A stretch of DNA of 64,000 nucleotides from Thermoanaerobaculia bacterium (GCA_963746875.1 CAVVDA010000005.1:618729-682728); one strand, 5' to 3'. Positions 2-12,677 are shown, counted from the first letter of the stretch. Notes: generated by a model not told the origin, from the sequence alone. A program made the numbers and translations.

Positions 2-2200
2 GTGACGATCGCGGGCCTGCCGCAGCGGATCGTCTCCTGGAGCCCCGACATCATCACACTCAACGTCACCAACACCGCACCGGTCATCGGGCAGCTCGTC
101 GTGAAGCGCGGCGACAACGGAAAATCCTCCGTCTCGGGCGTCAGCGTGACCGTCGGCGGCCCGGCACCCAAGGTGGTTGCGCCGGGAAGCACGATCCAGT
201 CGGTCATCGACTCCCCGGCCACCGCGGCGGGCGACCTCGTCATGGTTCCCTGCGGCCGGTACCCCGAGCTCCTCATCATGACGAAGCCCGTCAGGCTGCA
301 GGGGCAGGGCCCGGGCTGCACGACGATCGACGCCACCCGGAGCCCGAACGACAAGGTCCACAACTGGAACCTCAGGATGCAGGCCTTCATGGCCGACCCG
401 GCGAACGCCCGGTACGTGCTCCCCGGCCAGCCGACCGGCACGGGAGTTCCCGAGCCAACCCTGTTCGCAACGGAGCAGGGACCGGGGCTCATCGTCCTCG
501 GGCCGAGCGGCAACTTCAGCTCGAGCGACCCGATCGGGAGGAACGTCTACAGGCTCCTGAGCGGCTACCCGAACGCCCGCGTCGACGGCTTCACGTTCAC
601 GGGCGCCGACAACGCCGGGGCGATCTTCATAAACGGTTTCGCTCACCGCCTCCAGATCACGAACAACCACATTGTCGGGAACGCGGGCAATTTCGGCGGT
701 GGAATCCGCTCCGGATTCCCGACGCTCACCCAGACCGTCGGCACGGCGGACGCTTACGTCAACAGCTTCAACGACAACATGCTGATCGCCTACAACCAGA
801 TCACCGAGAACGGGGGCCTCGGCGGCGCGGGCGGAGGGATCTCGCTCTGCACCGGCTCGACCTCCTACAGCGTGACGAAGAACTGGATCTGCGGAAACTA
901 CACGAATGGCTCGGGCGGCGGCATCGGCCACCTCGGCTTCAGCAACAACGGGGTCATCGACCACAACACGATCATCTTCAACCAGACGTTCGACCAGTCC
1001 ACGACCCCGGGCGGCGGCGGCATCTTCGTCGGCGGCGAGGCCGCCATCGCGAACGCGGCCGGAATCACGATCAGCCCCGGGGCGGGGAACGTAACGATCA
1101 ACGCGAACCTGATCCAGGGGAACCTCGCGGGGGCTGGAGACGGCGGCGGAATCCGCGGCCAGTTCGTCAGCGGCGAGGACGTGTCGAGCTCCGGAGCCAA
1201 CTCGACGAACGGCTGGTCCCGGCTCGGAATCTACAACAACATCATCGCGAACAACGGAGCCGGCCTGGCGGGAGGCGGCATCTCTCTGCAGGACGTCGTG
1301 TTCCCGGACATTCTGGGCAACACGATCGCCGACAACGACTCGCTGGCCACGGCGGGCAGCGCCTTCCCGGCGGGGAGCCCAAATCAGTCGGACCCGCTGC
1401 CGGGCGGCGTCGCCTCGTACCGGCACACGGCCAACCTCATCGCGGTCTTTGCTTCCAAGGGCGCCGTCCTTCGCAGCCGGTACGGCATCTTCTCGAACCC
1501 GGGGCCGCTGCTCGCCCCGCCCCCGGTGCAGGGCAGAGCCCAGCCGACCTGGTTCGCGGACAACGTCATCTACGGGAACCGGTCGTTCTACGCCGTGATC
1601 GACCCCAACGCCCCCACGACCACGGCCAATTTCCTGCTCACGCCGGCGCCCGACGCCTTCGCGGGTCACCCCACGTGGTCCAAGGATCTCGCGGTGATCG
1701 GCACGGGCCCGACGGACTGCGGCGGCGCCGCATGCTTCCTCCACCCGGTCTACAGCCTGCTGACGAGCCTCACGGGCCCGTGGGCCCATTACGGCACGGG
1801 AGCGGACCACAACCGAACGGCCGCGAGCCAGACGGGTCTTTTCGCCTCCTGGTACCTCAACGGGTCGAGGAGCCCCCTCGCGCCGTACGACTTCACGACC
1901 GACATCCAGATGGCGCCGGCCTTCGACGAGGGAGGCAACTTCATCGACGTGAGGTTCGGGCCTCTGACGATCGACCCGACGTCCGGGCTGACCTTCACCC
2001 CCGGTCAGGGCTTCGCGAACTACTCGATTCTCGTAGGGACGCAGGCCGGGAACACCGGGTTCAACTTCAGCAATTCCTACGTCAACGCCGGCAACCCCAA
2101 CCCCTGGAACACCTGGCTCACGACCGACTTCTTCGGCAACGCGCGTCCTCATGCCGGTGCCGGAAACGTCCCGGATATCGGTTCGGTGGAGGTCCAGTGA
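2..2200 (+). CDS. Large secreted protein, 5'-truncated by the window: Ig/IPT-like segment, right-handed beta-helix repeats, choice-of-anchor-Q-like C-terminus
   Basis: Open from base 2. Gly/Asn-rich repeats (GGGIRSG, GGGISLC, GGGIFVG, GGGISLQ) typical of parallel beta-helix proteins. Ends TDFFGNARP...PDIGSVEVQ. The stop abuts the next gene (TGATG at 2198-2202). Confidence 0.72.
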   Translation: MTIAGLPQRIVSWSPDIITLNVTNTAPVIGQLVVKRGDNGKSSVSGVSVTVGGPAPKVVAPGSTIQSVIDSPATAAGDLVMVPCGRYPELLIMTKPVRLQGQGPGCTTIDATRSPNDKVHNWNLRMQAFMADPANARYVLPGQPTGTGVPEPTLFATEQGPGLIVLGPSGNFSSSDPIGRNVYRLLSGYPNARVDGFTFTGADNAGAIFINGFAHRLQITNNHIVGNAGNFGGGIRSGFPTLTQTVGTADAYVNSFNDNMLIAYNQITENGGLGGAGGGISLCTGSTSYSVTKNWICGNYTNGSGGGIGHLGFSNNGVIDHNTIIFNQTFDQSTTPGGGGIFVGGEAAIANAAGITISPGAGNVTINANLIQGNLAGAGDGGGIRGQFVSGEDVSSSGANSTNGWSRLGIYNNIIANNGAGLAGGGISLQDVVFPDILGNTIADNDSLATAGSAFPAGSPNQSDPLPGGVASYRHTANLIAVFASKGAVLRSRYGIFSNPGPLLAPPPVQGRAQPTWFADNVIYGNRSFYAVIDPNAPTTTANFLLTPAPDAFAGHPTWSKDLAVIGTGPTDCGGAACFLHPVYSLLTSLTGPWAHYGTGADHNRTAASQTGLFASWYLNGSRSPLAPYDFTTDIQMAPAFDEGGNFIDVRFGPLTIDPTSGLTFTPGQGFANYSILVGTQAGNTGFNFSNSYVNAGNPNPWNTWLTTDFFGNARPHAGAGNVPDIGSVEVQ

Positions 2201-2229
2201 TGCGAGAGCGCTCAGAAAGGAACGCCGCG

Positions 2230-3627
2230 ATGAAACTCCACAAATCGCCCTGGATCGCTCTTCTCGCTGGCTTCCTCTTGGGTCTTTCGATCGCGCGGCA
2301 CGCCGGGGCTGACGTCCACGTGCAATGCCGCGGCGACGTGGACGGAGACGGGATCCCGGACCAGTTCTTCAAGGTCTTCGCCGGACAAAGGACGGGCTGG
2401 GTCAACAACGCGGCCGGGACGGCGCGCTGCACCCCGACGAGCACGACCGGAGCTCCGTGCGTCCGCGTCACCGCGACCACGCCCGGGCGCCTCGTCAACA
2501 GCGCCTGGCGGAGCAACGTCAAGTGCATGCACATCACGTGCGGGGACGGCTACCAGACGATGGGCAACGGAACGCCCATCTACACGTTCGGCTTCCGCAA
2601 CGCGACGGGGCTCCCGCCGGCGAACGCCCTCGTCAACGCGTTCCTCGGGGCGGAGTGGCCCGCCCCGACCATCGCGATCGACGAGGGAGACGAGTTCTAC
2701 CTGACGTTGACGAACGTCAACCTCGCCGTCCGTCCGGACCTCTTCGATCCGCACTCGGTCCACTTTCACGGGTTTCCAAACGCCTCGTCCGTATTCGACG
2801 GAATGCCCGAGGGCTCCATCTCGGTCCTGGGTGGCAGCAGCCTGACCTACTACTACAAGATCGTCATCCCGGGCACCTACATGTACCACTGCCACGTCGA
2901 GGCGGCAGAGCACATGCAGATGGGAATGCTCGGCAATCTCTATGTCCGTCCGAAGCAGGACAAGGCCGCGGCGGGAACCGTTTTCGGAAGCCACATTCAT
3001 CAGAACGGCGACCTCTATGCGTACAACGACGGCGACGCTTCGACCTTCTGCAACAAGGAGATCCCGATCCAGGTCGGCTCGTTCGACCCGGTCTTCCACT
3101 TCGAGGATCAGTCCATCCAGCCGCCCGAGTTCTCGATCGAGGATCCGAAGTACGCCCAGCTGAACGGACGCGGGTACCCGGACACCGTTCACGCCGGTCC
3201 CCTCCCCTGGACGCCCCCGCAGGACAACTACGGGGGGCCGTTCCCGGTGCCCGACGACTACGTTCCGAAGACGTCTCAGAACATCGACACGGTGATCACG
3301 GCGACAGCGGGACAGAAGGTGCTTCTCCGGTTCTCGAGCCTGGATACCACGCGATTCTGGACGGTGACCGGGCTCGGCCTCCCGATGAAGGTGGTCGGCC
3401 TCGACGGGCGGCTGCTTCGGAGCACGCCCTACGGCGGCGGAGCGGGTCAGAACCTCGCCTACGACACGTCGTCCATCACGCTCGGGGGCGGCATGGCCGC
3501 GGACGTGCTGATCGACACGACGGGAGTCGCCCCCGGGACTTATTTCATCTACACGACGAACCTCAATTACCTCGCCAACGACGCGGAAGACTACGGCGGG
3601 ATGATGACCGAGTTCGTGGTGCAGTGA
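2230..3627 (+). CDS. Two-domain cupredoxin/multicopper oxidase subunit A (type-1 Cu site plus half of the trinuclear ligands)
   Basis: Sec-type signal MKLHKSPWIALLAGFLLGLSIARHAGA (alternative ATG at 2200). Domain 1 has PHSVHFHG and YMYHCHVEAAEHMQMGM. Domain 2 lacks His ligands (YFIYTTNLNYLANDAEDYGGM). Confidence 0.85.
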   Translation: MKLHKSPWIALLAGFLLGLSIARHAGADVHVQCRGDVDGDGIPDQFFKVFAGQRTGWVNNAAGTARCTPTSTTGAPCVRVTATTPGRLVNSAWRSNVKCMHITCGDGYQTMGNGTPIYTFGFRNATGLPPANALVNAFLGAEWPAPTIAIDEGDEFYLTLTNVNLAVRPDLFDPHSVHFHGFPNASSVFDGMPEGSISVLGGSSLTYYYKIVIPGTYMYHCHVEAAEHMQMGMLGNLYVRPKQDKAAAGTVFGSHIHQNGDLYAYNDGDASTFCNKEIPIQVGSFDPVFHFEDQSIQPPEFSIEDPKYAQLNGRGYPDTVHAGPLPWTPPQDNYGGPFPVPDDYVPKTSQNIDTVITATAGQKVLLRFSSLDTTRFWTVTGLGLPMKVVGLDGRLLRSTPYGGGAGQNLAYDTSSITLGGGMAADVLIDTTGVAPGTYFIYTTNLNYLANDAEDYGGMMTEFVVQ

Positions 3628-3638
3628 GGAGGCACGAG

Positions 3639-4983
3639 ATGAATCGACTTCAGCGCCTTTGCCTCCCGACGCTCGTCACGCTCTTCGTGTTGCTGCAGGC
3701 CCTTCCCGCTGCCGCCGTGATAGACGGAGTGACGGGAACTTCCTTTCACTTCACGGCGCGGGCCGGCCGGATCACGACCCCCGACGGCTCGAGCCTCCTC
3801 GTCTGGGGGTACGGCTGCACAGGAGTGCGGAACACAAGTCCAGTACCCGGGTGCGACCCTGATCCTGAACCAGGGCCAGACGGTGACGATCACCCTCACG
3901 AACGAGCTGACGACGCCCGATCCGGCGGCGCCCACGACGGGCACAGTCCCCGGGCCCAACGTCTCCCTCGTCTTCCCGGGCCAGGACAACGTCACGGCGA
4001 CGGGCGGCGTCGCGGGGAACGTGACCCAGGAAGCCCTGCCGGGCGGAGCGTCGGCCGTCACGTACACGTTCACCGCCAATCACCCGGGCACGTACCAATA
4101 CCACAGCGGGACGCGGGAGGACCTCGAGATCGAGATGGGGCTCGTGGGCGCCATCATCGTCCGGCCGACCGGCTTCGCCAACCGGGCCTACGCCCATCCG
4201 GCGACGGCGTTCGACCGGGAGTACCTCTTCCTCATCACGGAGATGGATCCGAACATCCACAACAACATCGACCTCGGCCGGATCGCCCTCGTCGACAACA
4301 CGGCCTTCGTCTCCACGTACTGGTTCTTCAACGGCCGGAACGCCCCCGACACGCTGGCCGAGCCCTACGTGCCGTGGATGCCGGCACAGCCGTACAACTG
4401 CGCGCCGCGGGTCCACCCGGGCGAGAAGATGCTGATCCGGACGGTGAGCGTCGGGCGGGAAATGCACCCCTTCCATCACCACGGGAACCACGCCCGCATC
4501 ATCGCGAAGGAGGGCCGCCTGCTCGAGAGCGCGCCCGGCGCCGGTCCGGATCTCTCTTATCTCGTCTACTCGATTCCGTCCATCCCGGGTGAGACGACGG
4601 ATGCGATCTGGGATTGGACGGGAGAGGGTCTCGGGTGGGACGCCTACGGACACACCACGAGCAGCGCGGCCACCCTCCAACCGGGAGAGTGCGTCTTCAA
4701 CGGCGCCGTCGATCTTGCCAATCCCCTTTGCGACCACGGCAAGGCGCTCCCGGTGACACTGCCTGACAATCTGGCCCTGATGCTCGGGGAGTTCTGGAGC
4801 GGCAGTCCCTATCTGGGGCAGCTCGGTTCCCTCCCGCCGGGCCAGGGACGCAACAATACGACCGGCGGGTACTTCTTCATGTGGCACTCGCACACGGAGA
4901 AGGAGATCGTGAACAACAACATTTTCCCGGGCGGAATGCTGACGATGTGCGTCGTCGAAGCTCCCGGCGTCGTCATCGAGTAA
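3639..4983 (+). CDS. Two-domain cupredoxin/multicopper oxidase subunit B (other half of the trinuclear ligands, no type-1 site); one frameshift near 3815-3838
   Basis: Signal MNRLQRLCLPTLVTLFVLLQALPAAA joins the frame VQYPGATLILNQGQTVTITLTNEL. Domain 1 is degenerate (NVSLVFPG, YQYHSGTREDLEIEMGL). Domain 2 has MHPFHHHGNH and FMWHSHTEKEIVNN. Confidence 0.8.
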
Positions 4984-4999
4984 GCGGAGGAGGTCGACG

Positions 5000-6976
5000 A
5001 TGAAAGTCAGAATCGCGCAAAGCGGGCCCCGCGGACTCCTCGGCCTCGCGGCGGCCGCTCTCCTCCTGGCCGTCGAGCCCGCCACGAGCGTCACGGTCAA
5101 CCTGACGGCCGGGCCGGTGACCGTGACGGTCGCCGGAAACCCGGTCCAGATGTGGGGATTCGGCCTGGACGCCAATCCCCCAACCGTCCCCGGACCTCCG
5201 ATCGTGGTGCCGCCCGGCGACACGTCGCTCACCATCAACCTGACGAACAACCTGCCCGAAGGGGTGTCGATCGTCATCCCGGGCCAGAACGCCACGATGA
5301 CACCGGTCTTCTTCTTCGACGCGGGCCTGCCAACCAACGGAATCGACCCCGCGACGCCTCCCCGCCGGCGCGTCAAGGCGTTCACGGCTGAAGCAGGCCC
5401 GACGGGCGGGACGCACACGTACACCTGGACAGGGCTCAGGCCCGGAACGTTCCTTTACGAGAGCGGCTCGCACCCCGGCGTCCAGGTCCAGATGGGTCTC
5501 CACGGCTCCGTGGCCGTCCAGCCGGCCGCCGGTCAGGTCTACCCTGGCGTGCCGTACGGCAAGGAGGTCGTCCTCGTCCTGAGCGAAGTCGATCCCGTGC
5601 TCGCGAACGCCGTGGCGAGCGGCCGCTACGGCCAGCCCGTGCCGGACCCGCTTCCGCCCGGGCTGACCGCGGCCGACTACCCGTCCAGCCCCATCAACTA
5701 CCGCCCGAGATATTTCCTCGTGAACGGCGCTCCGTATGCGCCCGGAAGCACAATTTCCACCGGCACGGGAGGCCTGCCTCTCCTCTCCAACGACGCCATT
5801 CTCGTCCGCTTCCTCAACGCCGGGCTCAGGACGCACTCGATGGCGCTCTTCGCCCCCACGCCGGCGGCCGGCGGGGTGCCGGCGACGTATTTCTCGATCC
5901 TCTCGGAGGACGGAAACCAGTACCAGCACCCCCGCCAGGCGTACTCGGTCTTCCTGCCCGCCAGCAAGACGGCCGACGCGATCGTCTCGCCCCCGGCGGC
6001 GGGAAGCTACGCTCTCCAGGACCGTACGCTCCACCTCACCAACGGCAACGCCGTGGGGGATGCCGGCCTGCAGGCAGTACTCTCGATCGGTGCAGGCACG
6101 GCGGCGCCCGTCGCGAACGACGACGCCTTCCGGACGGCCGTGAACACGCCCCTGTCGGTACCGGCTCCGGGCGTTCTTTCGAACGACACCGGCACGGGCC
6201 TGACGGTGAACTCCACGACGCCGGCCTCCCACGGCACAGCGGCCGTCAACGCGGACGGGTCATTCACGTACACGCCGACATCGGGCTTCTCGGGGATCGA
6301 CTCGTTCACGTATACGGCCTCCAACGGGACGACGAGCAACGTCGCGACGGTCACGCTCACCGTGAGCCTGCCGCCGGTCGCCGCGCCGAACACCTACAGC
6401 GTCGCCGGCGTGTTGAACGTGGCGGCCCCGGGGGTGCTCGGCAACGACACGAGCCCGGACCTGCTGCCCCTGAACGCTCTCCTCGTGACGGGCCCGACGA
6501 AGCTCGGAACCGGTTCCTTCACACTGAATCCGGACGGCTCCTTCTCGTATACAACGAGCAACACCACCGTGACGACCGACTCGTTCACGTACAGGGCTTG
6601 CGACGGGACGCTCTGCAGCACTCCCGCGACCGGCGCGACCGTGACCCTCAACCTGACCGGGCACCCGGCCCCGATCGCCAACGACGATACGTTCAGCGTG
6701 ACGATGAACTCCGTCAACAACTCTCTCGACGTTCTCGCGAACGACTTCGCGTTCGCTCCGGCGACGATCGTCCGGACGAACGTTCCCCCGAACAACCAGT
6801 CTCCGAGAATCATGAGCGCGCCGAGCCGGGGCGGCACCGTGCTGGTCCTTGCCAATGGCAATATCCGTTACACTCCGGCGCACGGCTTCACAGGCACGGA
6901 CGTCTTCACGTACAGGTTCCGGGACAGCATGAACGCGAACTCGAACACCGCCACGGTCAGGGTGAACGTCCAGTAA
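5000..6976 (+). CDS. Two-domain pseudo-cupredoxin subunit C with three C-terminal Ig-like (Big_9/cadherin-like) repeats
   Basis: Signal peptide. MCO-like scaffold (MWGFG...VPGPPIVV, LYESGSHPGVQVQMGLHG, YFLVNG) without HxH/HCH motifs. Repeats PVANDD.../GVLxND/GSFxYTP. Confidence 0.8.
   Translation: MKVRIAQSGPRGLLGLAAAALLLAVEPATSVTVNLTAGPVTVTVAGNPVQMWGFGLDANPPTVPGPPIVVPPGDTSLTINLTNNLPEGVSIVIPGQNATMTPVFFFDAGLPTNGIDPATPPRRRVKAFTAEAGPTGGTHTYTWTGLRPGTFLYESGSHPGVQVQMGLHGSVAVQPAAGQVYPGVPYGKEVVLVLSEVDPVLANAVASGRYGQPVPDPLPPGLTAADYPSSPINYRPRYFLVNGAPYAPGSTISTGTGGLPLLSNDAILVRFLNAGLRTHSMALFAPTPAAGGVPATYFSILSEDGNQYQHPRQAYSVFLPASKTADAIVSPPAAGSYALQDRTLHLTNGNAVGDAGLQAVLSIGAGTAAPVANDDAFRTAVNTPLSVPAPGVLSNDTGTGLTVNSTTPASHGTAAVNADGSFTYTPTSGFSGIDSFTYTASNGTTSNVATVTLTVSLPPVAAPNTYSVAGVLNVAAPGVLGNDTSPDLLPLNALLVTGPTKLGTGSFTLNPDGSFSYTTSNTTVTTDSFTYRACDGTLCSTPATGATVTLNLTGHPAPIANDDTFSVTMNSVNNSLDVLANDFAFAPATIVRTNVPPNNQSPRIMSAPSRGGTVLVLANGNIRYTPAHGFTGTDVFTYRFRDSMNANSNTATVRVNVQ
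6668..6976 (+). repeat. C-terminal Ig-like module, copy 1 (copy 2 at 9102-9410)
   Basis: 102-aa ungapped alignment with the protease C-terminus; 73/102 identical by manual count. Confidence 0.9.
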
Positions 6977-6989
6977 TGGAGAGACCGGG

Positions 6990-7451
6990 GTGACAAAAGC
7001 AATCCGACGGGGGGTGCCGCTCCTTCTCGGGGCGGCGCTCCTCGCCTCTTCCATGGGGGTCGCCGCCGCCGGGACGGAAACGGCGGCGACGCCCCGTGCG
7101 TCCGCCGCCGCATGCGACGATCTGAGGGACGTCTGGGGTGTCGAGATCGTCCGGCTCAACCTGACGGCGTACGGCCACATGGTCGACTTTCGTTTCCGTG
7201 TGCTCGATCCCGTCAAGGCGAAGCCGCTTCTCGAGCGGAGGGTCGACGCCCACCTCGTCGACCTGGCCACCGGGAAGGCGCTCGCCGTCCCCGACGCCCC
7301 GAAGACCGGGCGCCTGAGGAGCAAGGGAGTCCCGGAAGCCGGCCGGATCTATTTCGTCCTGTTCCAGAATCAGGGAGGTCTTCTCGAGAGGGGGGACAGG
7401 GTCTCCGTCGTCATCGGAGATTTCCGCGCCGAAGGCCTGACCGTCGAGTGA
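6990..7451 (+). CDS. Secreted hypothetical protein in the MCO operon
   Basis: GTG start with GGAGA upstream, signal peptide, compact domain (GHMVDFRFRVLDP, YFVLFQNQGG). Overlaps the next gene (GTGA at 7448-7451). Confidence 0.7.
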   Translation: MTKAIRRGVPLLLGAALLASSMGVAAAGTETAATPRASAAACDDLRDVWGVEIVRLNLTAYGHMVDFRFRVLDPVKAKPLLERRVDAHLVDLATGKALAVPDAPKTGRLRSKGVPEAGRIYFVLFQNQGGLLERGDRVSVVIGDFRAEGLTVE

Positions 7452-9410
7452 ACGCGGCGGGTCGATGCCGCACCCTCCTCGCGAGGGCGCTGGTCTTCCT
7501 GGTGCCCTTCGCGCCGGCCTCTGCCGGGGGCGTCGTCGATCCCGCCTTGCTGGCCGCGACGAGCCGAATGACACCGGGGCAGGAGGTCGCGGTCATCGTT
7601 TACCTCGCCGACCGCGTCTCCCTGTCCGCGTTCGCTCCCGGGGGAGCCGGCGAGAGAAACGCGTCGCCGGCGCTCGTCACGGCCCTGAAGAACAAAGCGC
7701 AGTCCACGCAGGGCCCCGTCTTCGCGAGCGCCGTGACCGCCGACGGCCGCGGTCTGGTCTCTCTCTGGGCAATCAACGCAATCGCCCTCAAGCTTCCCAA
7801 CGAGCACGTCCCGTCTCTGGCGCAGATCCCGGGCGTGGAAAGCGTCCGGCTGGACGCGGTGATTCAGGCGCCCGCGCCCTCCCCGGCCGCTTCACCCGGC
7901 AGCTCCCGAGTGGAACATCTCCATGCTGGGCGCGCCGGATCTCTGGGCGGCCGGGAGCACGGGGAGCGGCGTCGTCGTCGCGAGCCTCGATACCGGCGTC
8001 GACGCCCAGCACCCCGACCTTTCCACGCGGTGGCGGGGCGGCGCGAACAGCTGGTTCGACCCGAACGGAGAGCACGCCACCCCCGACGACGTGAGCGGCC
8101 ACGGGACGCAGGCGATGGGGCTCATCGTCGGCGGAGACGCCGGCGGATCCTCCATCGGGATGGCCCCCGGGGCGACGTGGATCGCCGCCAAGATCTTCAA
8201 CGACGCGGGCCAGGCGACCCTGAGCGGGATACACCAGGCGTTCCAGTGGGCGCTGGATCCGGACGGAAGCCCGGAGACGGTGGATTCCCCGCACGTCGTG
8301 AACAACTCGTGGGGCTTCCAGCCGACCGTCGGCACCTGCTGGACCGAGTTCGCGCACGACATTGCGATTCTCCGGGCGGCCGGCATCGCGGTCGTCTTCT
8401 CGGCCGGCAACGACGGTGGGGCCGCCAGCACCAGCGAGAGCCCCGCGAACAACGTGGGGTCGGTCTCCGTCGGCGCGGTCGACAGCTCGCGGAGCGTGGC
8501 CTCCTTCAGCAGCAGGGGCCCTTCGGCCTGCAACGGAAGCGTTTTCCCCAAATTGGCGGCCCCCGGCGTCTCGGTGAGGACCGCGGACCTGAGCTTCGGC
8601 GGGGCGGTCCCAAATCCCTATGCCGTGGTCAGCGGCACATCCTTCTCGGCCCCCCACGTCGCGGGCTCGATGGCGCTCCTCTGGAGCGCTCATCCGTCGA
8701 CGAACCTCGCCGCGATGGAGGCGATCCTCGAGTCGACCGCGGCCGACCTCGGGATCGCGGGACCGGACAACGACGCCGGCTACGGCCTCCCCGACCTCGT
8801 CGCCGCGAGCTTCGCGCTCCAGCCTCCAGTCGCCGCGAACGACGCTTACAGCGTGGAGCCCGGGGCCTCCCTCGACGTCCCGGCGCCCGGGGTCCTCGGA
8901 AACGACACGAGCCCCCAGGGACGGCCCCTGACGGCAATTCTCGGGAGATTCCCGGCGTCGGGAAGGCTGACGCTCCGTAGCAACGGGTCGTTTCTTTTCC
9001 TGGCGCCGCGCACCACCGGGACGATCACGTTCCTTTACTCAGCGAACGACGGGATTCTCCGGAGCACACCGGCGACGGTGACGATCAACGTCATTCACTC
9101 GGCACCGGTCGCAAACGACGACACGTTCACCGTCGCGGTGAACTCCCCGGGGACGCCCCTCGACGTCCTGGCCAACGACACGGTCACGGCCCCGGCGACG
9201 ATCGTGAAGACCAACTTTCCGCCCAACAACCCCTCTCCGAGGATCCTCAGTGCTCCGTCCATGGGCGGCACGGTGCTCGTCCTGGCCAACGGCATGGTCC
9301 GATACCGGCCGGCACCGGGCTTCCAGGGCACCGAGACCTTCAGGTACCGCTTCCGGGACAGCCTGAATGCCATGTCGAACTCTGCGACGGTCCATGTGAC
9401 CGTCCAGTAG
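7448..9410 (+). CDS. S8 subtilisin-like serine protease with prodomain and two Ig-like repeats; one frameshift near 7895-7915
   Basis: Catalytic motifs LDTGVD, GHGTQAMG and GTSFSAPHVAG, plus oxyanion FSAGND. Signal and prodomain are in the upstream frame. Confidence 0.9.
9102..9410 (+). repeat. C-terminal Ig-like module, copy 2 (copy 1 at 6668-6976)
   Basis: APVANDDTF...PPNNPSPRILSAPS.GGTVLVLANG...YRFRDS.NA.SN.ATV.V.VQ is shared with subunit C. Confidence 0.9.
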
Positions 9411-9468: not shown

Positions 9469-11841
9469 ATGCGTTCTCGAAGCGGTCGGGACGCCCAGAG
9501 CGCCGGCCGCTCCTCGCGCGACTCCTCGGAGGTGATTGAGAAGGTCGAGGCCCGCGGGACCGCGGCCCGGTGGCTTCCGGCCGCGGTGTTCGCCGGTGCC
9601 GCCCTGCTGCACTTTGCCGTGTGGGCCGCGATCCCGTTCCAACCCTTCACGATCTACACGCTCGCGGCATCGCTCCGGGCCGCGGGCCGGCTCGAGCCCT
9701 TCCGGGTCCCGGATTTTTCCCCGTTCTACTTCCACTTGCATCTGCTGCTCGCACGTACGGGTCTGTCGTACGCACCGACTCTGCACGCGATCGAGATCCT
9801 CGCCACGTCCCTGACCGCGGCGCTCTTCGCGCGTCTCTGCCTGGAGTTCTTCCCGGTTCGCGTCGCCCTGGCAGGGGGCCTTCTCTTCGTCCTCAGCCCT
9901 GCTCCGCTGCTTCTGTCCCAACTCCTCCTGCCCGAGGTCTGGCGCCTCCTCTTCGATGTTTCGGCTCTTCTCGCGTTCGTCCTGTTCCGCCGGACTCGCC
10001 GGCTTCGGCACGTCATCGCCGCCGCCCTGCTCCTCGGGCTCTCCGCCTCGACGCGTCCCACGGCGCTCGTCCTCGCGGTCGGGCTGGCGGCCGCGCTTCT
10101 GGTCACCGATGGCCTCGAGGGTCTGAGGCCGGCGGCGGTCCTCGTCGCCGGGCCGTTGCTCTTCCTTTCGCTCGTCGCTCTTCGCAACGGGGCGCTGACC
10201 GGCAGTGTGGATTTAACCGTCATGGATCCCGGAGCGGTCTTCTATCTCGGCAACAACCCGTCCAGCCGCGGAACGGTCGCCGATTCCCCGCTCCTGAAGC
10301 AAATGGAGGCGGATGTCGGGGGTCAGCCGGACTACGTGCACGTCCTCTACAAGAGGTTTCCGGCGGTGGCCCTCGGGCGCTCCGTTTCCGCGAGCGAGGC
10401 GAGCGGGTACTGGTCGCGGAAGGCCTTCGCCTTTCTTCGCCGCCACCCGGGCGAGGCTCTCCGGCTCGCCGGGGAGAAGCTCGCCCTCGTTTGCCGCGCC
10501 TGGGAGCCGCCGGACTCCATTCCCGCGTTCGAGCTCGAGCGGAATCTCCGGGCCGCACACGTCCCGCTCCTTCCTTTCTCGCTGCTCGTTTCGCTCGGTG
10601 TCGTCGGTGTGTGGACCCTGCGCCGCCGGGTTGCGGACGTCCTGCCGCTCCTCGCTTGCGGCGCCGCCTGTGCGGCGAGCGTTCTCCTCTTCTACGTCAA
10701 CACCCGGATGCGGGCGCCTCTGCTGCCGTTCGCCGCTTTCTTCGCCTGCGCGGCGCTCGACGCGCTCCGCCGCGGCTTCGCCACCCGCGCGTGGCGCGCG
10801 GTCGCGGCCGGAACTCTCGCGGTCGTGGCTTTCTTCGCTCTCCTTCAGGTTCCGACGGATACGGAGGCGACCCTGCGTCACGGCTTTTTCGCCCAGTACT
10901 CCGCCTCGCTCCTGCGCGCCGAGGCCGCGAATCTGAGGAACCGGGGATCCAGAGAGAGGGCAGCCGCCGTCGTGGCCCGCTCCGTCGCGACCGCTCCGTT
11001 CTCCGCGGAGGAGATGACGCTCGCGAACCTGCCCTATCCCCCCGGAGGGCCGATCGCGGCGTCGCTCGAAGCCGCGCGGGCCGAGGTCGCCGCCGGCACG
11101 GCGACGCGGGACCGCCTCTTCGACCTCGGGATTCTCCTCTACGAAGCTCGCGACCTCGAGGCGGCGCGAAAAGTGTTCGTCGCCCTGGAGACTTCGGGCG
11201 GGCGCTTCGACCGCGGAGGCCGGTGCGCGCCGGCGCCTGCCTTCTACCTCGCGAGGATCGTGGAGCTCGACGGGGGAGAACGGCGGGAGGCGGAGCGTCT
11301 GTTCCGTTCGGCTCTCCGGACGGCCCCGGGGGACGCCGCGACGCTCGCACACCTGAGCGTCCTCTGCGAGGAGTCCCGCCGCCCGGCAGAGGCGGCGGCC
11401 CTTCGTGAGGAGCTCTTCGCCGAGAGGCCCGACGTCGACGCGGCTTTTACGCTCGGGCGGGCCTGCCTCGAGCGCGGCGATGCCAGGGAGGCCGCGCTCT
11501 GGCACGGCCGCGTCGCGCGGTGGCTCCCGGACTTCCGCCGCGCGCGTCTCTATGCCGCGGCCGCGTTTTCCGGCGCCGGCGACGTCGCGAGCGCGGTCTC
11601 GCACGCGGAAGAGGCCTTTTCGCTCCGGGAGGACCCCATCGGACTGGAAGCGTTCATCCTCCCTGCTTACGAGCAGGCGGCGCGGAACGAACCTGGCTCG
11701 GCCGCCGCGCGCTTTCGTCTCGGCCGGGCGCTGCGCCGTTACGGACGCTTCATGGAAGCTCGCGAACGATACCGCGAAGCCCTGCTCCTGGATCCGGCCT
11801 TCCAGCCGGCGCGCCGCGAGCTCTCGATCCTCGATCGCTGA
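9469..11841 (+). CDS. Polytopic GT-C (PMT/ArnT-like) glycosyltransferase with C-terminal TPR repeats
   Basis: Many hydrophobic helices, motifs LLPE, STRPT, GAVFYLGNNP and RMRAPLLP. TPR-like tail (ARFRLGRALRRYGRFMEARERYREALLLDP). Start position uncertain. Confidence 0.75.
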   Translation: MRSRSGRDAQSAGRSSRDSSEVIEKVEARGTAARWLPAAVFAGAALLHFAVWAAIPFQPFTIYTLAASLRAAGRLEPFRVPDFSPFYFHLHLLLARTGLSYAPTLHAIEILATSLTAALFARLCLEFFPVRVALAGGLLFVLSPAPLLLSQLLLPEVWRLLFDVSALLAFVLFRRTRRLRHVIAAALLLGLSASTRPTALVLAVGLAAALLVTDGLEGLRPAAVLVAGPLLFLSLVALRNGALTGSVDLTVMDPGAVFYLGNNPSSRGTVADSPLLKQMEADVGGQPDYVHVLYKRFPAVALGRSVSASEASGYWSRKAFAFLRRHPGEALRLAGEKLALVCRAWEPPDSIPAFELERNLRAAHVPLLPFSLLVSLGVVGVWTLRRRVADVLPLLACGAACAASVLLFYVNTRMRAPLLPFAAFFACAALDALRRGFATRAWRAVAAGTLAVVAFFALLQVPTDTEATLRHGFFAQYSASLLRAEAANLRNRGSRERAAAVVARSVATAPFSAEEMTLANLPYPPGGPIAASLEAARAEVAAGTATRDRLFDLGILLYEARDLEAARKVFVALETSGGRFDRGGRCAPAPAFYLARIVELDGGERREAERLFRSALRTAPGDAATLAHLSVLCEESRRPAEAAALREELFAERPDVDAAFTLGRACLERGDAREAALWHGRVARWLPDFRRARLYAAAAFSGAGDVASAVSHAEEAFSLREDPIGLEAFILPAYEQAARNEPGSAAARFRLGRALRRYGRFMEARERYREALLLDPAFQPARRELSILDR

Positions 11842-11896
11842 GGACGCGGAATCCGCTCGAGAAATTGATAGGCGCCGTTCGGCCGGGCCGGTTTGG

Positions 11897-12677
11897 TCAG
11901 AACTTGTAGACGAAGGCCGCGATGAGCGCCGTGTCGGTTTTCTTGAGCGTGTCCGGATTGGGCCTGTTCTTGACGTCGACGAGGTACATGATTTTCAGCT
12001 CGGACCTCTTCGAGAGGGAGGCCGCGACACCCATCTCGAAGTGATAGAAGGCGTCCGAGACGCGCGCTCGTCTTCCAGAGGCCGCTCGCCTTCTCGGTGA
12101 ACGTCGCGAGCGGGGAGATCCTCCAGAGGAAGCTCTGGCCAACCGCGAACGCCCCGCTGTTGCTCGGGTCGTATCCGCTGTCCTTCTCGAACGCGCCGCC
12201 GATCGAGACGTCGACGCCCAGCTCGAGGTTCTTCTGCTTTATGAAGTAATAGCCGCCGCCGGCCATCGGGGTGAAGAGGTACACGATGTTCTTGAACTTG
12301 TCGCGCTGATAGCCGACCTGCGCGAAGGCGTAGATCCGGTCGGTCAGGGCGTACTCGTAGCGCAGGGACCCGGCGGCCTTGTCGGTCGTGGCGTCGCCGT
12401 TCGTGGTCGAGCGCAGGTAGAAGGCATCGGCCTTGAACACGCCGTGCGTCTTCGGGTCGTAGACGAGGTTGAAGGCGACGTTGAAGGCGCTCGTGTCCGT
12501 GTTGCCGCTCGTCATCGAGAGTCCCGCGCTCAGCGAGCCCGTCAGCGGCGGGGGAGGCGGCTCGGGGCAGGGGCACGGGCAGACGCACGGCGGCGGCGCG
12601 ACGGCCTGCTGTGCGAGGGCGGGCGCGGCCACGAGAAGGGCGAGGAGCGTGGGGTGGAGGAGCTTCTTGGAGTTCAT
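11897..12677 (-). CDS. DUF481/YdiY-family outer-membrane beta-barrel; frameshift near 12065
   Basis: Signal peptide, GSLSAGLSMTSGNTDT, YQRDKFKN. Ends in the aromatic beta-signal ...ALIAAFVYKF after the frame change. Confidence 0.8.

What the first reader, a model, noticed from the sequence alone, without database searches (positions are those of the whole stretch)
2..9410. Six-gene operon of secreted proteins, possibly a surface-assembled copper-oxidase, protease and beta-helix apparatus
SEEN: six co-oriented genes with overlaps or short spacers (about 30 nt or less). The five complete ones have Sec-type rather than Tat signals. They are a beta-helix protein, three cupredoxins, a small accessory protein and a subtilase. 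KNOWN: many bacterial MCOs are Tat-exported, large surface MCOs act in Mn(II)/Fe(II) oxidation, and beta-helices often bind polysaccharides. INFERENCE: an extracellular machine that is loaded with Cu after export and possibly matured by the co-encoded subtilase. It may act on metals or polymers. The 5' part of ORF1 lies upstream of the window and may hold more cupredoxin domains.
Basis: partly seen in the sequence, partly recalled or inferred. Interest (0 to 1): 0.62.

Follow-up and report, generated by a model that had tools for sequence, protein, structure and literature searches.

The report
Conserved multi-subunit secreted copper oxidase cassette
These six genes are one copy of a gene cassette found in hundreds of bacterial species; it most likely builds a secreted copper oxidase from three related subunits that share a single active site, joined to a giant beta-helix protein, a small unknown protein and a protease, and its substrate has never been tested.

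Summary
The six co-oriented genes are real, with spacers of 16 nt or less. They are G (giant beta-helix protein, 1830 aa, starting 3.3 kb upstream of the window), three two-domain multicopper-oxidase (MCO) paralogs A, B and C, a 153-aa protein S, and an S8 subtilase P. B and P each carry a frameshift here. This is probably assembly error: the genome's rpoC fragment has two frameshifts in 1.5 kb, and 82%-identical relatives have intact genes.

The order G-A-B-C-S-P recurs in 50 of 80 fetched loci from many phyla, and most of the rest are cut by contig ends. The copper ligands are split. A keeps the T1 site plus four cluster histidines (85/85). B keeps the other four (78/78). C has none. One hetero-oligomeric oxidase with one active site is therefore the best reading. 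G is fused to A or C in some genomes.

SCO1 and a MofC-like cytochrome c recur nearby and lie upstream here. Type II secretion genes recur in a few loci.

G's upstream part holds no cupredoxin domains. A variant (A-B-[C fused to G]-S-x-SCO1-MofC) is on the Cupriavidus metallidurans CH34 chromid. It matches the published description of Sideroxydans Slit_1812-1818, which is induced on magnetite.

This scan found the MCO trio earlier on other genomes. The function is untested.

The parts
2..2200 (+). G: C-terminal 732 aa of the 1830-aa giant secreted protein. The full gene is L003:2708-8200, which is window -3292..2200.
   Evidence: The ORF and its signal peptide MSTKRFSWLLPVLSVFALLAAPRLFAAA are. 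The AlphaFold model of these 732 aa has pLDDT 83 and pTM 0.90 and is a right-handed beta-helix. Foldseek gives only generic beta-helix matches, none at E<=0.001. The N-terminal part matches SdrD_B at E 3.5e-9 and has no cupredoxin domain. G is conserved over its whole length in 67 orthologs.
2200..3627 (+). A: two-domain MCO subunit that carries the T1 copper site and half of the trinuclear-cluster ligands in domain 1. The alternative start at 2230 matches relatives.
   Evidence: Pfam matches Cu-oxidase_3, Cu-oxidase_2 and Cu-oxidase. The best PDB hit is the type-C two-domain MCO 3g5w. Both ligand motifs are present in 85/85 orthologs, and domain 2 has no HxH.
2752..2772 (+). A motif HSVHFHG: a T1 histidine plus an HxH pair of the trinuclear cluster.
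2887..2928 (+). A motif HCHVEAAEHMQMGM: T1 Cys, His and axial Met, plus the flanking cluster histidines.
   Evidence: The spacing is the same as in 3g5w.
3639..4983 (+). B: two-domain MCO-like subunit that carries the other four cluster histidines in domain 2. It is read in two frames in this assembly.
   Evidence: The ortholog in L005 is an intact 451-aa gene.
3816..3826 (+). Frameshift site in B: one extra base relative to L005 and L006 (TGCAC[A]GGAGTGC).
4465..4485 (+). B motif HPFHHHG in domain 2.
   Evidence: (78/78 orthologs).
4882..4893 (+). B motif WHSH in domain 2: an HxH pair with no T1 cysteine, as in domain 2 of 3g5w (HDH).
   Evidence: (75/78 orthologs).
5000..6976 (+). C: ligand-free two-cupredoxin subunit followed by three Big_9/cadherin-like domains.
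   Evidence: Pfam results are. The window copy has no HxH. No ortholog of 74 has HCH, and only 8 of 74 have any HxH.
6668..6973 (+). C-terminal ~100-aa Big_9 module of C. It is 71% identical to the C-terminal module of P.
   Evidence: The same sharing is seen in about 13 of 47 loci.
6990..7451 (+). S: small secreted protein. The fold is an N-terminal helix followed by an Ig-like beta-sandwich.
   Evidence: No Pfam or NCBIfam family matches. The model has pLDDT 86 overall and about 97 in the fold. Foldseek finds no match at E<=0.001. No His, Cys or Met is conserved. There are 2252 representative clusters in 1.84 billion proteins. A lipobox-like motif matched a loose pattern in 24 of 68 orthologs.
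7448..9410 (+). P: S8 subtilase with a propeptide-like N-terminal region, an intact catalytic triad and two Big_9 domains. It is read in two frames in this assembly.
   Evidence: Peptidase_S8 matches at E 6.6e-50. The triad motifs are DTGVD at 7989-8003, HGTQ at 8100-8111 and GTSFSAP at 8634-8654. The L005 ortholog is intact at 626 aa. P is present in 49 of 54 loci. A MopE metal-binding motif occurs in 23 of 51 P orthologs, but not in this one.
7864..7905 (+). Interval that contains the frame change in P. It is a variable linker between the propeptide and the catalytic domain.
9102..9407 (+). C-terminal Big_9 module of P, shared with C.

Best explanation
The six genes encode one Sec-exported copper-oxidase apparatus that works outside the cytoplasm.

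Subunits A, B and C are diverged copies of a type-C two-domain multicopper oxidase. I infer that they assemble as a mixed ring, as the homotrimeric relatives do.
- Only A keeps the blue (T1) copper site and four of the eight histidines of the oxygen-reducing trinuclear cluster. These lie in its domain 1.
- Only B keeps the other four, in its domain 2.
- C has none and is structural.

Inferred mechanism: electrons enter at the T1 copper of A, pass through the Cys-His bridge to a single trinuclear cluster at the A-B interface, and reduce O2 to water.

The giant protein G (adhesin-like domains plus a beta-helix) is a physical partner. It probably acts as the docking or surface-binding platform. 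S is a small beta-sandwich assembly or anchoring factor. P is an accessory protease or tether. An SCO1 chaperone supplies copper after export, and a MofC-like cytochrome c with a periplasmic-binding domain is a redox partner.

The most likely job is oxidation of reduced metal outside the cell, such as Fe(II) or Mn(II), including mineral-bound forms. The substrate is the weakest step.

Shown: gene content, co-conservation, the ligand split, the fusions and the recurring neighbours. Inferred: the ring assembly, the location and the substrate.
For: - Ligand complementarity is kept across phyla. A has HxxHxHG and HCHx5Hx4M in 85/85 orthologs. B has HxxHxHG in 78/78 and WHSH in 75/78. C has no HCH in 74.
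- The closest solved structure is the type-C two-domain MCO 3g5w, with the same motif spacing in domain 1 and HxH pairs in domain 2.
- A, B and C each form one clade (support 1.0, 0.97, 0.996), so the triplication predates the spread of the cassette.
- Relatives of A occur in 540 species genomes. The order GABCSP is found in 50 of the 80 fetched loci, and most of the rest are cut by contig ends.
- Fusions without an internal signal peptide occur: G-Big_9-A in L047, L087 and L061, and C-G in L058. On the Cupriavidus metallidurans CH34 chromid, C and G lie in one 2698-aa ORF.
- Recurrent neighbours are SCO1 (28 loci), a cytochrome c/periplasmic-binding protein (27 loci), a NarL-type two-component system (29 loci) and T2SS E/F/G genes (6-8 loci). 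The first two lie upstream in this genome.
- 23 of 51 P orthologs carry a MopE metal-binding motif.
- Signal peptides are Sec-type.
- Literature: three tandem MCO genes with a mofC-like gene and a copper-chaperone gene were noted in Sideroxydans ES-1 and predicted to be extracellular (PMC5566968). Slit_1812-1818 proteins were more abundant on magnetite than on Fe(II)-citrate (10.1101/2024.09.20.614158).
Against: - There is no biochemical or structural evidence for an A-B-C complex. Multimer modelling was not available.
- The substrate is unknown.
- Many carriers are strict anaerobes (Desulfatiglans, Desulfosarcina, Thermodesulfovibrio), which sits oddly with an O2-dependent metal oxidase.
- I matched the Sideroxydans cluster by its published description and through the homologous CH34, Paraburkholderia and Ralstonia clusters. 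I did not compare the Slit sequences directly.
- T2SS genes adjoin the cassette in only about 10% of loci, so an extracellular rather than periplasmic location is open.
- In this assembly B and P are frameshifted.
Confidence: 0.6

Rival explanations
1. The cassette is an oxygen-scavenging or terminal oxidase. The MofC-like cytochrome c feeds cellular electrons to the T1 copper of A, and the complex reduces O2 in the periplasm or at the surface. This would protect microaerophiles and anaerobes, rather than oxidise an external metal.
For: A cytochrome c/periplasmic-binding gene recurs in 27 loci and is present here. Many carriers are sulfate reducers, Geobacter or Thermodesulfovibrio. A GAF/PAS sensor kinase with a NarL-type regulator recurs in 29 loci.
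Against: This reading gives no obvious role to a conserved 1800-aa adhesin-like/beta-helix partner or to the Big_9 tails. T2SS genes in some loci point outward. The Sideroxydans cluster responded to a solid Fe(II) mineral.
Confidence: 0.15
2. The cassette is a copper-detoxification system: a cuprous oxidase like CueO or PcoA that converts Cu(I) to Cu(II) outside the cytoplasm.
For: In this genome the cassette lies a few kb downstream of ORFs that by eye look like RND-type and P-type ATPase copper-efflux genes. These were not confirmed by HMM. The cassette is present on the chromid of the metal-resistant Cupriavidus metallidurans CH34. MopE metal-binding motifs occur on 23 of 51 P proteins.
Against: Copper-efflux genes are not among the recurrent neighbours in the 84 loci compared. 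The subunits are two-domain rather than three-domain, are exported by Sec rather than Tat, and have no methionine-rich insert (Met 1.2-2.7%). No CopB/PcoB partner was seen.
Confidence: 0.1
3. The cassette is a surface-matrix system. The beta-helix of G acts on or binds a polysaccharide, and the oxidase cross-links G, the matrix or phenolic compounds, as laccases do in spore coats and cuticles. P trims the products.
For: The weak fold matches of the beta-helix are mostly to pectin methylesterases, polysaccharide lyases, an alginate epimerase and an adhesin. G has SdrD_B adhesin-type domains. C and P carry Big_9/cadherin-like tails. A collagen-like gene lies directly upstream here.
Against: No fold match reaches E<=0.001 and no catalytic motif of a known lyase or esterase was identified. 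The collagen-like gene was not among the neighbour families that recur across loci. The recurrent SCO1 and cytochrome c partners fit metal or electron-transfer chemistry better.
Confidence: 0.1
4. In this particular organism the cassette is decaying. The frameshifts in B and P are real and the operon no longer works.
For: Both genes are split over two frames in the only sequence available.
Against: The essential rpoC fragment in the same assembly has two frameshifts in 1.5 kb. rpoB is missing, and estimated completeness is 53.8% for 6 contigs. This is typical of indel-rich long-read assemblies. Outside the shift points both reading frames remain protein-like and about 80% identical to intact orthologs.
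Confidence: 0.05

Closest known systems
Type-C two-domain multicopper oxidases (Nitrosomonas europaea blue copper oxidase, PDB 3g5w)
   Same: A, B and C have the same two-cupredoxin fold. Domain 1 of A has the same T1 and HxH/HCH motifs with the same spacing. Domain 2 of B has the two HxH pairs, as domain 2 of 3g5w does.
   Different: In 3g5w one polypeptide carries all eight cluster histidines, and from general knowledge it forms a homotrimer with three active sites. Here the ligands are divided between A and B, and C has none. At most one active site is possible per A-B-C set.
Sideroxydans lithotrophicus ES-1 cluster Slit_1812-1818 (three tandem MCO genes with a mofC-like cytochrome and SCO1)
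   Same: The published description matches. Two MCO-like proteins have canonical motifs and one lacks them. The one without motifs is large and has adhesin-like and polysaccharide-lyase-like domains. Small hypothetical proteins, SCO1 and a cytochrome are present. The homologous CH34 cluster has exactly this layout, and its A, B, C, G, S and MofC-like genes match the cassette's reference proteins, including the window's own A, B, C, G and S.
   Different: In that variant C and G are fused, the order is A-B-CG-S, and no subtilase was found in the region searched. Here G is a separate first gene and P closes the operon. I did not compare the Slit sequences directly.
OmpB (Geobacter) and MofA (Leptothrix) extracellular multicopper protein clusters
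   Same: They share the accessory genes: a MofC-like cytochrome c with a periplasmic-binding domain, and SCO1. They are also linked to type II secretion and to metal redox outside the cell.
   Different: OmpB and MofA are single large MCO polypeptides. According to PMC5566968 the three tandem MCOs are not homologous to them.
Ceruloplasmin-type six-domain MCOs and the Bacillus Mnx complex (MnxG plus small MnxE/MnxF subunits)
   Same: Both have six cupredoxin domains with a single trinuclear cluster (from general knowledge). Mnx is an MCO that needs small accessory subunits. These are functional analogies only.
   Different: Here the six domains would lie on three polypeptides. S shows no similarity to any family I could test, and no comparison with MnxE or MnxF was run.

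Membership tests
Type-C two-domain MCO (3g5w-like) | Two cupredoxin domains | tested here: met
   A and B match Cu-oxidase_3 and Cu-oxidase_2, A also matches Cu-oxidase, and C matches Cu-oxidase_3 weakly. PDB hits are 3g5w, 3gdc and 2zwn.
Type-C two-domain MCO (3g5w-like) | T1 copper ligands (His, Cys, His, Met) in domain 1 | tested here: met
   Met in A only: HSVHFHG and HCHx5Hx4M, in 85/85 orthologs. Absent from B and C.
Type-C two-domain MCO (3g5w-like) | All eight trinuclear-cluster histidines on one polypeptide (four in domain 1, four in domain 2) | tested here: not met
   A has only the domain-1 set, B has only the domain-2 set, and C has none.
Type-C two-domain MCO (3g5w-like) | Trimeric ring assembly | not testable with these tools
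   No multimer prediction or biochemistry was available.
Slit_1812-1818-type three-MCO cluster | Three tandem MCO-like genes, two with copper motifs and one without | tested here: met
.
Slit_1812-1818-type three-MCO cluster | A mofC-like cytochrome c/periplasmic-binding gene and an SCO1 gene in the cluster | tested here: met
   Upstream in the same orientation: an SCO1 domain in the ORF at window -7789..-6356, and a CQTCH cytochrome with a weak Peripla_BP_6 match (E 0.008) ending at -4767. These genes recur in 27-28 loci.
Slit_1812-1818-type three-MCO cluster | Large adhesin-like and lyase-like domains attached to the ligand-free subunit | tested here: not met
   Here G is a separate gene upstream of A. 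The C-G fusion is seen in CH34 and L058.
Slit_1812-1818-type three-MCO cluster | Sequence homology to the Slit proteins themselves | not tested
Homology was shown to the CH34 cluster, which has the same layout. The paper names Paraburkholderia and Ralstonia clusters, and my plasmid search found one match per record in those genera.
CueO/PcoA/CopA copper-resistance MCO | Three-domain MCO, Tat signal and a methionine-rich region | tested here: not met
   The subunits have two domains. There is no twin-arginine consensus. Met content is 1.2-2.7% with no Met-rich insert.
Subtilase S8 (P) | Asp-His-Ser catalytic triad within a Peptidase_S8 domain | tested here: met
   Peptidase_S8 matches at E 6.6e-50. 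DTGVD, HGTQ and GTSFSAP are present, and the corresponding columns are invariant or nearly invariant in the alignment of 51 P proteins.
PCu(A)C copper chaperone (one UniRef name given to an S homolog) | Conserved His/Met copper ligands and a match to the family model | tested here: not met
   No Pfam or NCBIfam hit. The invariant residues are R, G, R, F and N, with no conserved His, Met or Cys. Foldseek finds no match at E<=0.001.

The most novel reading that the evidence does not exclude
The cassette encodes a natural 'split ceruloplasmin'. This would be an obligate heterotrimer of three two-domain multicopper-oxidase paralogs with one active site, mounted on a giant beta-helix/adhesin protein. 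It would let diverse bacteria exchange electrons with solid-phase Fe or Mn minerals outside the cell. It would also be a living intermediate between trimeric two-domain oxidases and six-domain oxidases.
Probability: 0.3. Interest if true: 0.8.

Novelty: new variant of a known kind. Interest (0 to 1): 0.6.

Why it matters
Multicopper oxidases are usually described as single polypeptides or homotrimers. A widely conserved system in which the active site can only form between two different subunits would be a new assembly mode. It would also be a testable intermediate in the proposed evolution of six-domain oxidases.

The cassette occurs in iron and sulfur oxidisers, sulfate reducers, metal-resistant Cupriavidus and many uncultured groundwater and sediment bacteria. 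A related cluster responds to magnetite. It may therefore be an unrecognised route of extracellular metal or oxygen redox chemistry.

Cultured carriers such as Cupriavidus metallidurans CH34, Sideroxydans ES-1 and Amphritea pacifica make it experimentally tractable.

Tried and rejected
- **Frameshifts as recoding or pseudogenes.** Rejected in favour of assembly error, because rpoC is frameshifted twice in 1.5 kb and relatives are intact.
- **More cupredoxin domains in the upstream part of G.** None found.
- **S as a copper chaperone or a known fold.** It has no family, no conserved metal ligands and only generic Ig-like matches.
- **The beta-helix of G as NosD or a defined lyase.** A profile search against PDB sequences found nothing at E<=1. 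Foldseek gave only generic matches.
- **Apparent G-A fusions in L051 and L067.** The joined ORF still contains a hydrophobic, signal-peptide-like segment before A, so I did not count them as clean fusions.
- **Promoter and terminator scan.** Uninformative: no promoter-like sites and no convincing terminator.
- **The shared C/P tail as a general feature.** It is present in only about 13 of 47 loci.
- **Literature searches for a described heteromeric two-domain MCO.** Nothing found.
- **Looking for Sideroxydans among homologs of S.** It was not in the top 120.

Full report
**Observation**

Window 2-9410 holds six co-oriented + strand genes, called G, A, B, C, S and P here. Boundaries and spacers are as follows:
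- The G stop at 2198-2200 overlaps an ATG of A by one base. Relatives use the ATG at 2230.
- A stops at 3627 and B starts at 3639.
- B stops at 4983 and C starts at 5000.
- C stops at 6976 and S starts at 6990.
- The S stop overlaps the GTG start of P at 7448.
- P stops at 9410.

A and B match Cu-oxidase_3 and Cu-oxidase_2, and A also matches Cu-oxidase. C has a weak Cu-oxidase_3 match and three Big_9/cadherin-like domains. S matches no family. P matches Peptidase_S8 (E 6.6e-50) and has two Big_9 domains. NCBIfam adds nothing specific.

B begins in one frame (signal peptide and first ~60 residues) and continues in another. P changes frame between its propeptide-like region and its catalytic domain.

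Two independently assembled relatives about 82% identical (L005, L006) have intact genes of 451 aa and 626 aa. A DNA alignment shows one extra base in the window at about 3821. In P, the shift falls in a length-variable linker.

The window lies in a 4.1-Mb, 6-contig genome scored 53.8% complete with 0.02% contamination. rpoB is not found. The rpoC fragment at a contig end is read in three pieces with two frame changes in 1.5 kb. I therefore treat both frameshifts as probable assembly indels.

**The upstream part of ORF1**

I retrieved the contig. G is 1830 aa with a Sec signal peptide and starts at window -3292. Its N-terminal 1100 aa match only SdrD_B, with weak SpaA and CarboxypepD_reg hits, and contain no cupredoxin domain.

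An AlphaFold model of the 732 aa inside the window, built on 67 orthologs, is a confident right-handed beta-helix (pLDDT 83, pTM 0.90). Foldseek finds only generic beta-helix relatives: pectin methylesterases, polysaccharide lyases, AlgE4, RbtA and PfbA. None reaches E<=0.001. A profile search of PDB sequences finds nothing.

G is conserved along its whole length, unlike a typical fast-evolving repeat adhesin.

**Co-conservation**

A has more than 4500 homologs at E<=1e-5. The same six genes in the same order occur in Desulfatiglans anilini, a Methylocaldum-like contig and a further metagenomic contig.

A scan of one genome per species found relatives of A in 540 species. In the 80 loci fetched:
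- 50 have the order G-A-B-C-S-P.
- Most of the rest are cut by contig ends.
- One is rearranged (A-B-C-G-S).
- P is present in 49 of the 54 loci with at least 3.5 kb after S.

Carriers include Desulfobacterota, Myxococcota, Gammaproteobacteria (Thiobacillus, Thiohalomonas, Methylocaldum, Amphritea pacifica), Nitrospirota, Acidobacteriota, Bdellovibrionota and Planctomycetota. Co-transcription remains untested.

**The three 'cupredoxins' are complementary subunits**

The best solved relative of A is the type-C two-domain MCO of Nitrosomonas europaea (3g5w). Its domain 1 carries HxxHxHG and HCHx5H..M, and its domain 2 carries two HxH pairs.
- In A, domain 1 has both motifs (HSVHFHG and HCHVEAAEHMQMGM). 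Domain 2 has none.
- In B, domain 1 has lost them. Domain 2 keeps HPFHHHG and WHSH.
- C has none.

This pattern holds across the fetched orthologs. A has both motifs in 85/85. B has HxxHxHG in 78/78 and WHSH in 75/78. C has no HCH in 74. A, B and C each form a single well-supported clade, so the triplication is old.

In this enzyme class the trinuclear cluster sits between domain 1 of one subunit and domain 2 of the next (general knowledge of two-domain MCOs). The simplest reading is therefore a mixed A-B-C ring with one T1 site and one trinuclear cluster at the A-B interface. This is inference, because no multimer model or biochemistry was possible.

**G belongs to the complex**

Fusions without an internal signal peptide join G to A through Big_9 domains in L047, L087 and L061. 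They join C to G in L058. On the Cupriavidus metallidurans CH34 chromid, C and G lie in one 2698-aa ORF.

**S and P**

S is modelled with high confidence as an N-terminal helix plus an Ig-like sandwich. It has no structural match at E<=0.001 and no conserved His, Cys or Met. It is always a stand-alone protein of roughly 115-260 aa. There are 2252 representative clusters in 1.84 billion proteins, all annotated as hypothetical. A lipobox-like motif matched a loose pattern in 24 of 68 orthologs.

P has an intact Asp-His-Ser triad. Its tail varies among 51 orthologs: 23 carry a MopE-type metal-binding motif and 11 carry Big_9 domains.

In the window the last ~100 aa of C and of P are 71% identical, closer to each other than to the tails of any other locus. 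This sharing occurs in only about 13 of 47 loci.

**Neighbours**

I clustered the flanking ORFs of 84 loci. Recurrent neighbours are:
- a NarL-type response regulator and a GAF/PAS histidine kinase (29 loci each);
- SCO1/SenC (28 loci);
- a cytochrome c fused to a periplasmic-binding domain (27 loci);
- T2SS E, F and G genes (6-8 loci);
- an FG-GAP protein (7 loci).

In this genome, three co-oriented genes lie directly upstream of G. The first is an ORF with ECF-sigma and SCO1 domains (window -7789..-6356). The second is a CQTCH cytochrome with a weak periplasmic-binding-domain match, ending at -4767. The third is a collagen-like gene (ATG about -4604, ending -3375).

Signal peptides across orthologs are Sec-type. 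Together with SCO1, this supports copper loading after export.

**Literature**

PMC5566968 noted three tandem MCO genes with a mofC-like gene and a copper-chaperone gene in Sideroxydans lithotrophicus ES-1. It predicted the MCOs to be extracellular and not homologous to OmpB or MofA. It also described MofC-like proteins as a cytochrome c domain plus a periplasmic-binding domain.

Preprint 10.1101/2024.09.20.614158 reports that Slit_1812-1818 proteins were more abundant on magnetite than on Fe(II)-citrate. The cluster comprises a cytochrome, SCO1, two small proteins and three cupredoxin proteins. Two of the three have MCO motifs. The third is larger, with adhesin-like and lyase-like domains. 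Similar clusters were reported in Paraburkholderia, Ralstonia, Anaeromyxobacter and Steroidobacteraceae.

My plasmid search found exactly one homologous place in each of 12 Paraburkholderia, Ralstonia and Cupriavidus replicons. The CH34 locus reads A, B, C-G fusion, S, two ORFs, then a MofC-like gene, and no subtilase was found in the region searched. So the published cluster is very probably a variant of this family, although I could not align the Slit sequences. No paper I could search describes the split ligands or a heteromeric two-domain MCO.

**Earlier notes of this scan**

Other windows of this scan reached the same reading of the MCO trio on six other genomes. Two first-reader notes cover this same stretch. 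My analysis agrees with them. It adds the whole-cassette synteny counts, the S and G models, the neighbour census, the CH34 variant and the two papers.

**Verdict**

Two parts are not supported: the guess of extra cupredoxin domains in G, and an obligatory role for the subtilase.

The most likely mechanism is a hetero-oligomeric oxidase with a single active site, docked on G. The substrate (metal or mineral, cytochrome-fed O2 reduction, or copper) remains open.

Noticed in passing
L002:12211-13644 (window -7789..-6356): One stop-free frame contains ECF sigma-factor regions 2 and 4, a Cys-rich stretch, a hydrophobic segment and an SCO1 domain with a CxxxC motif. It is either a sigma/anti-sigma-SCO1 fusion, or two genes merged by an assembly indel.
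   Followed up: partly
L003:1396-2628 (window -4604..-3375): A secreted protein with a collagen-like GPT/GAT triplet run lies between the MofC-like cytochrome gene and G. It was not among the neighbour families that recur across loci.
   Followed up: partly
window 9469-11841 (+) and 11739-12677 (-): A 790-aa membrane protein with a weak PMT_2 glycosyltransferase match and C-terminal TPR repeats follows P in the same orientation. Its 3' end overlaps a convergent DUF481 outer-membrane protein gene. Neither was seen downstream of P in other loci.
   Followed up: partly
G000:C6:768900-770447: The rpoC fragment at a contig end is read in three pieces with two frame changes. rpoB is not detected in the assembly. 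Gene calls throughout this genome should be expected to contain indel artefacts.
   Followed up: yes
L002:1-11200 (window about -20000..-8800): By eye, ORFs resembling an RND-type heavy-metal efflux pump and a P-type ATPase with an N-terminal metal-binding motif lie upstream of the cassette. They were not checked with HMMs.
   Followed up: no
L051:4892-11269 and L067:4778-11074: In two Desulfatibacillum MAGs the G frame runs without a stop into A. It passes through a glycine run and a hydrophobic, signal-peptide-like segment. It is unclear whether this is a real fusion or a lost stop codon.
   Followed up: partly
L009:16597-18036: In Desulfatiglans anilini a MauG/di-haem cytochrome c peroxidase gene directly follows a P protein that carries a MopE metal-binding motif. 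From general knowledge, this recalls the MopE/CorA-CorB pairing of methanotrophs.
   Followed up: no
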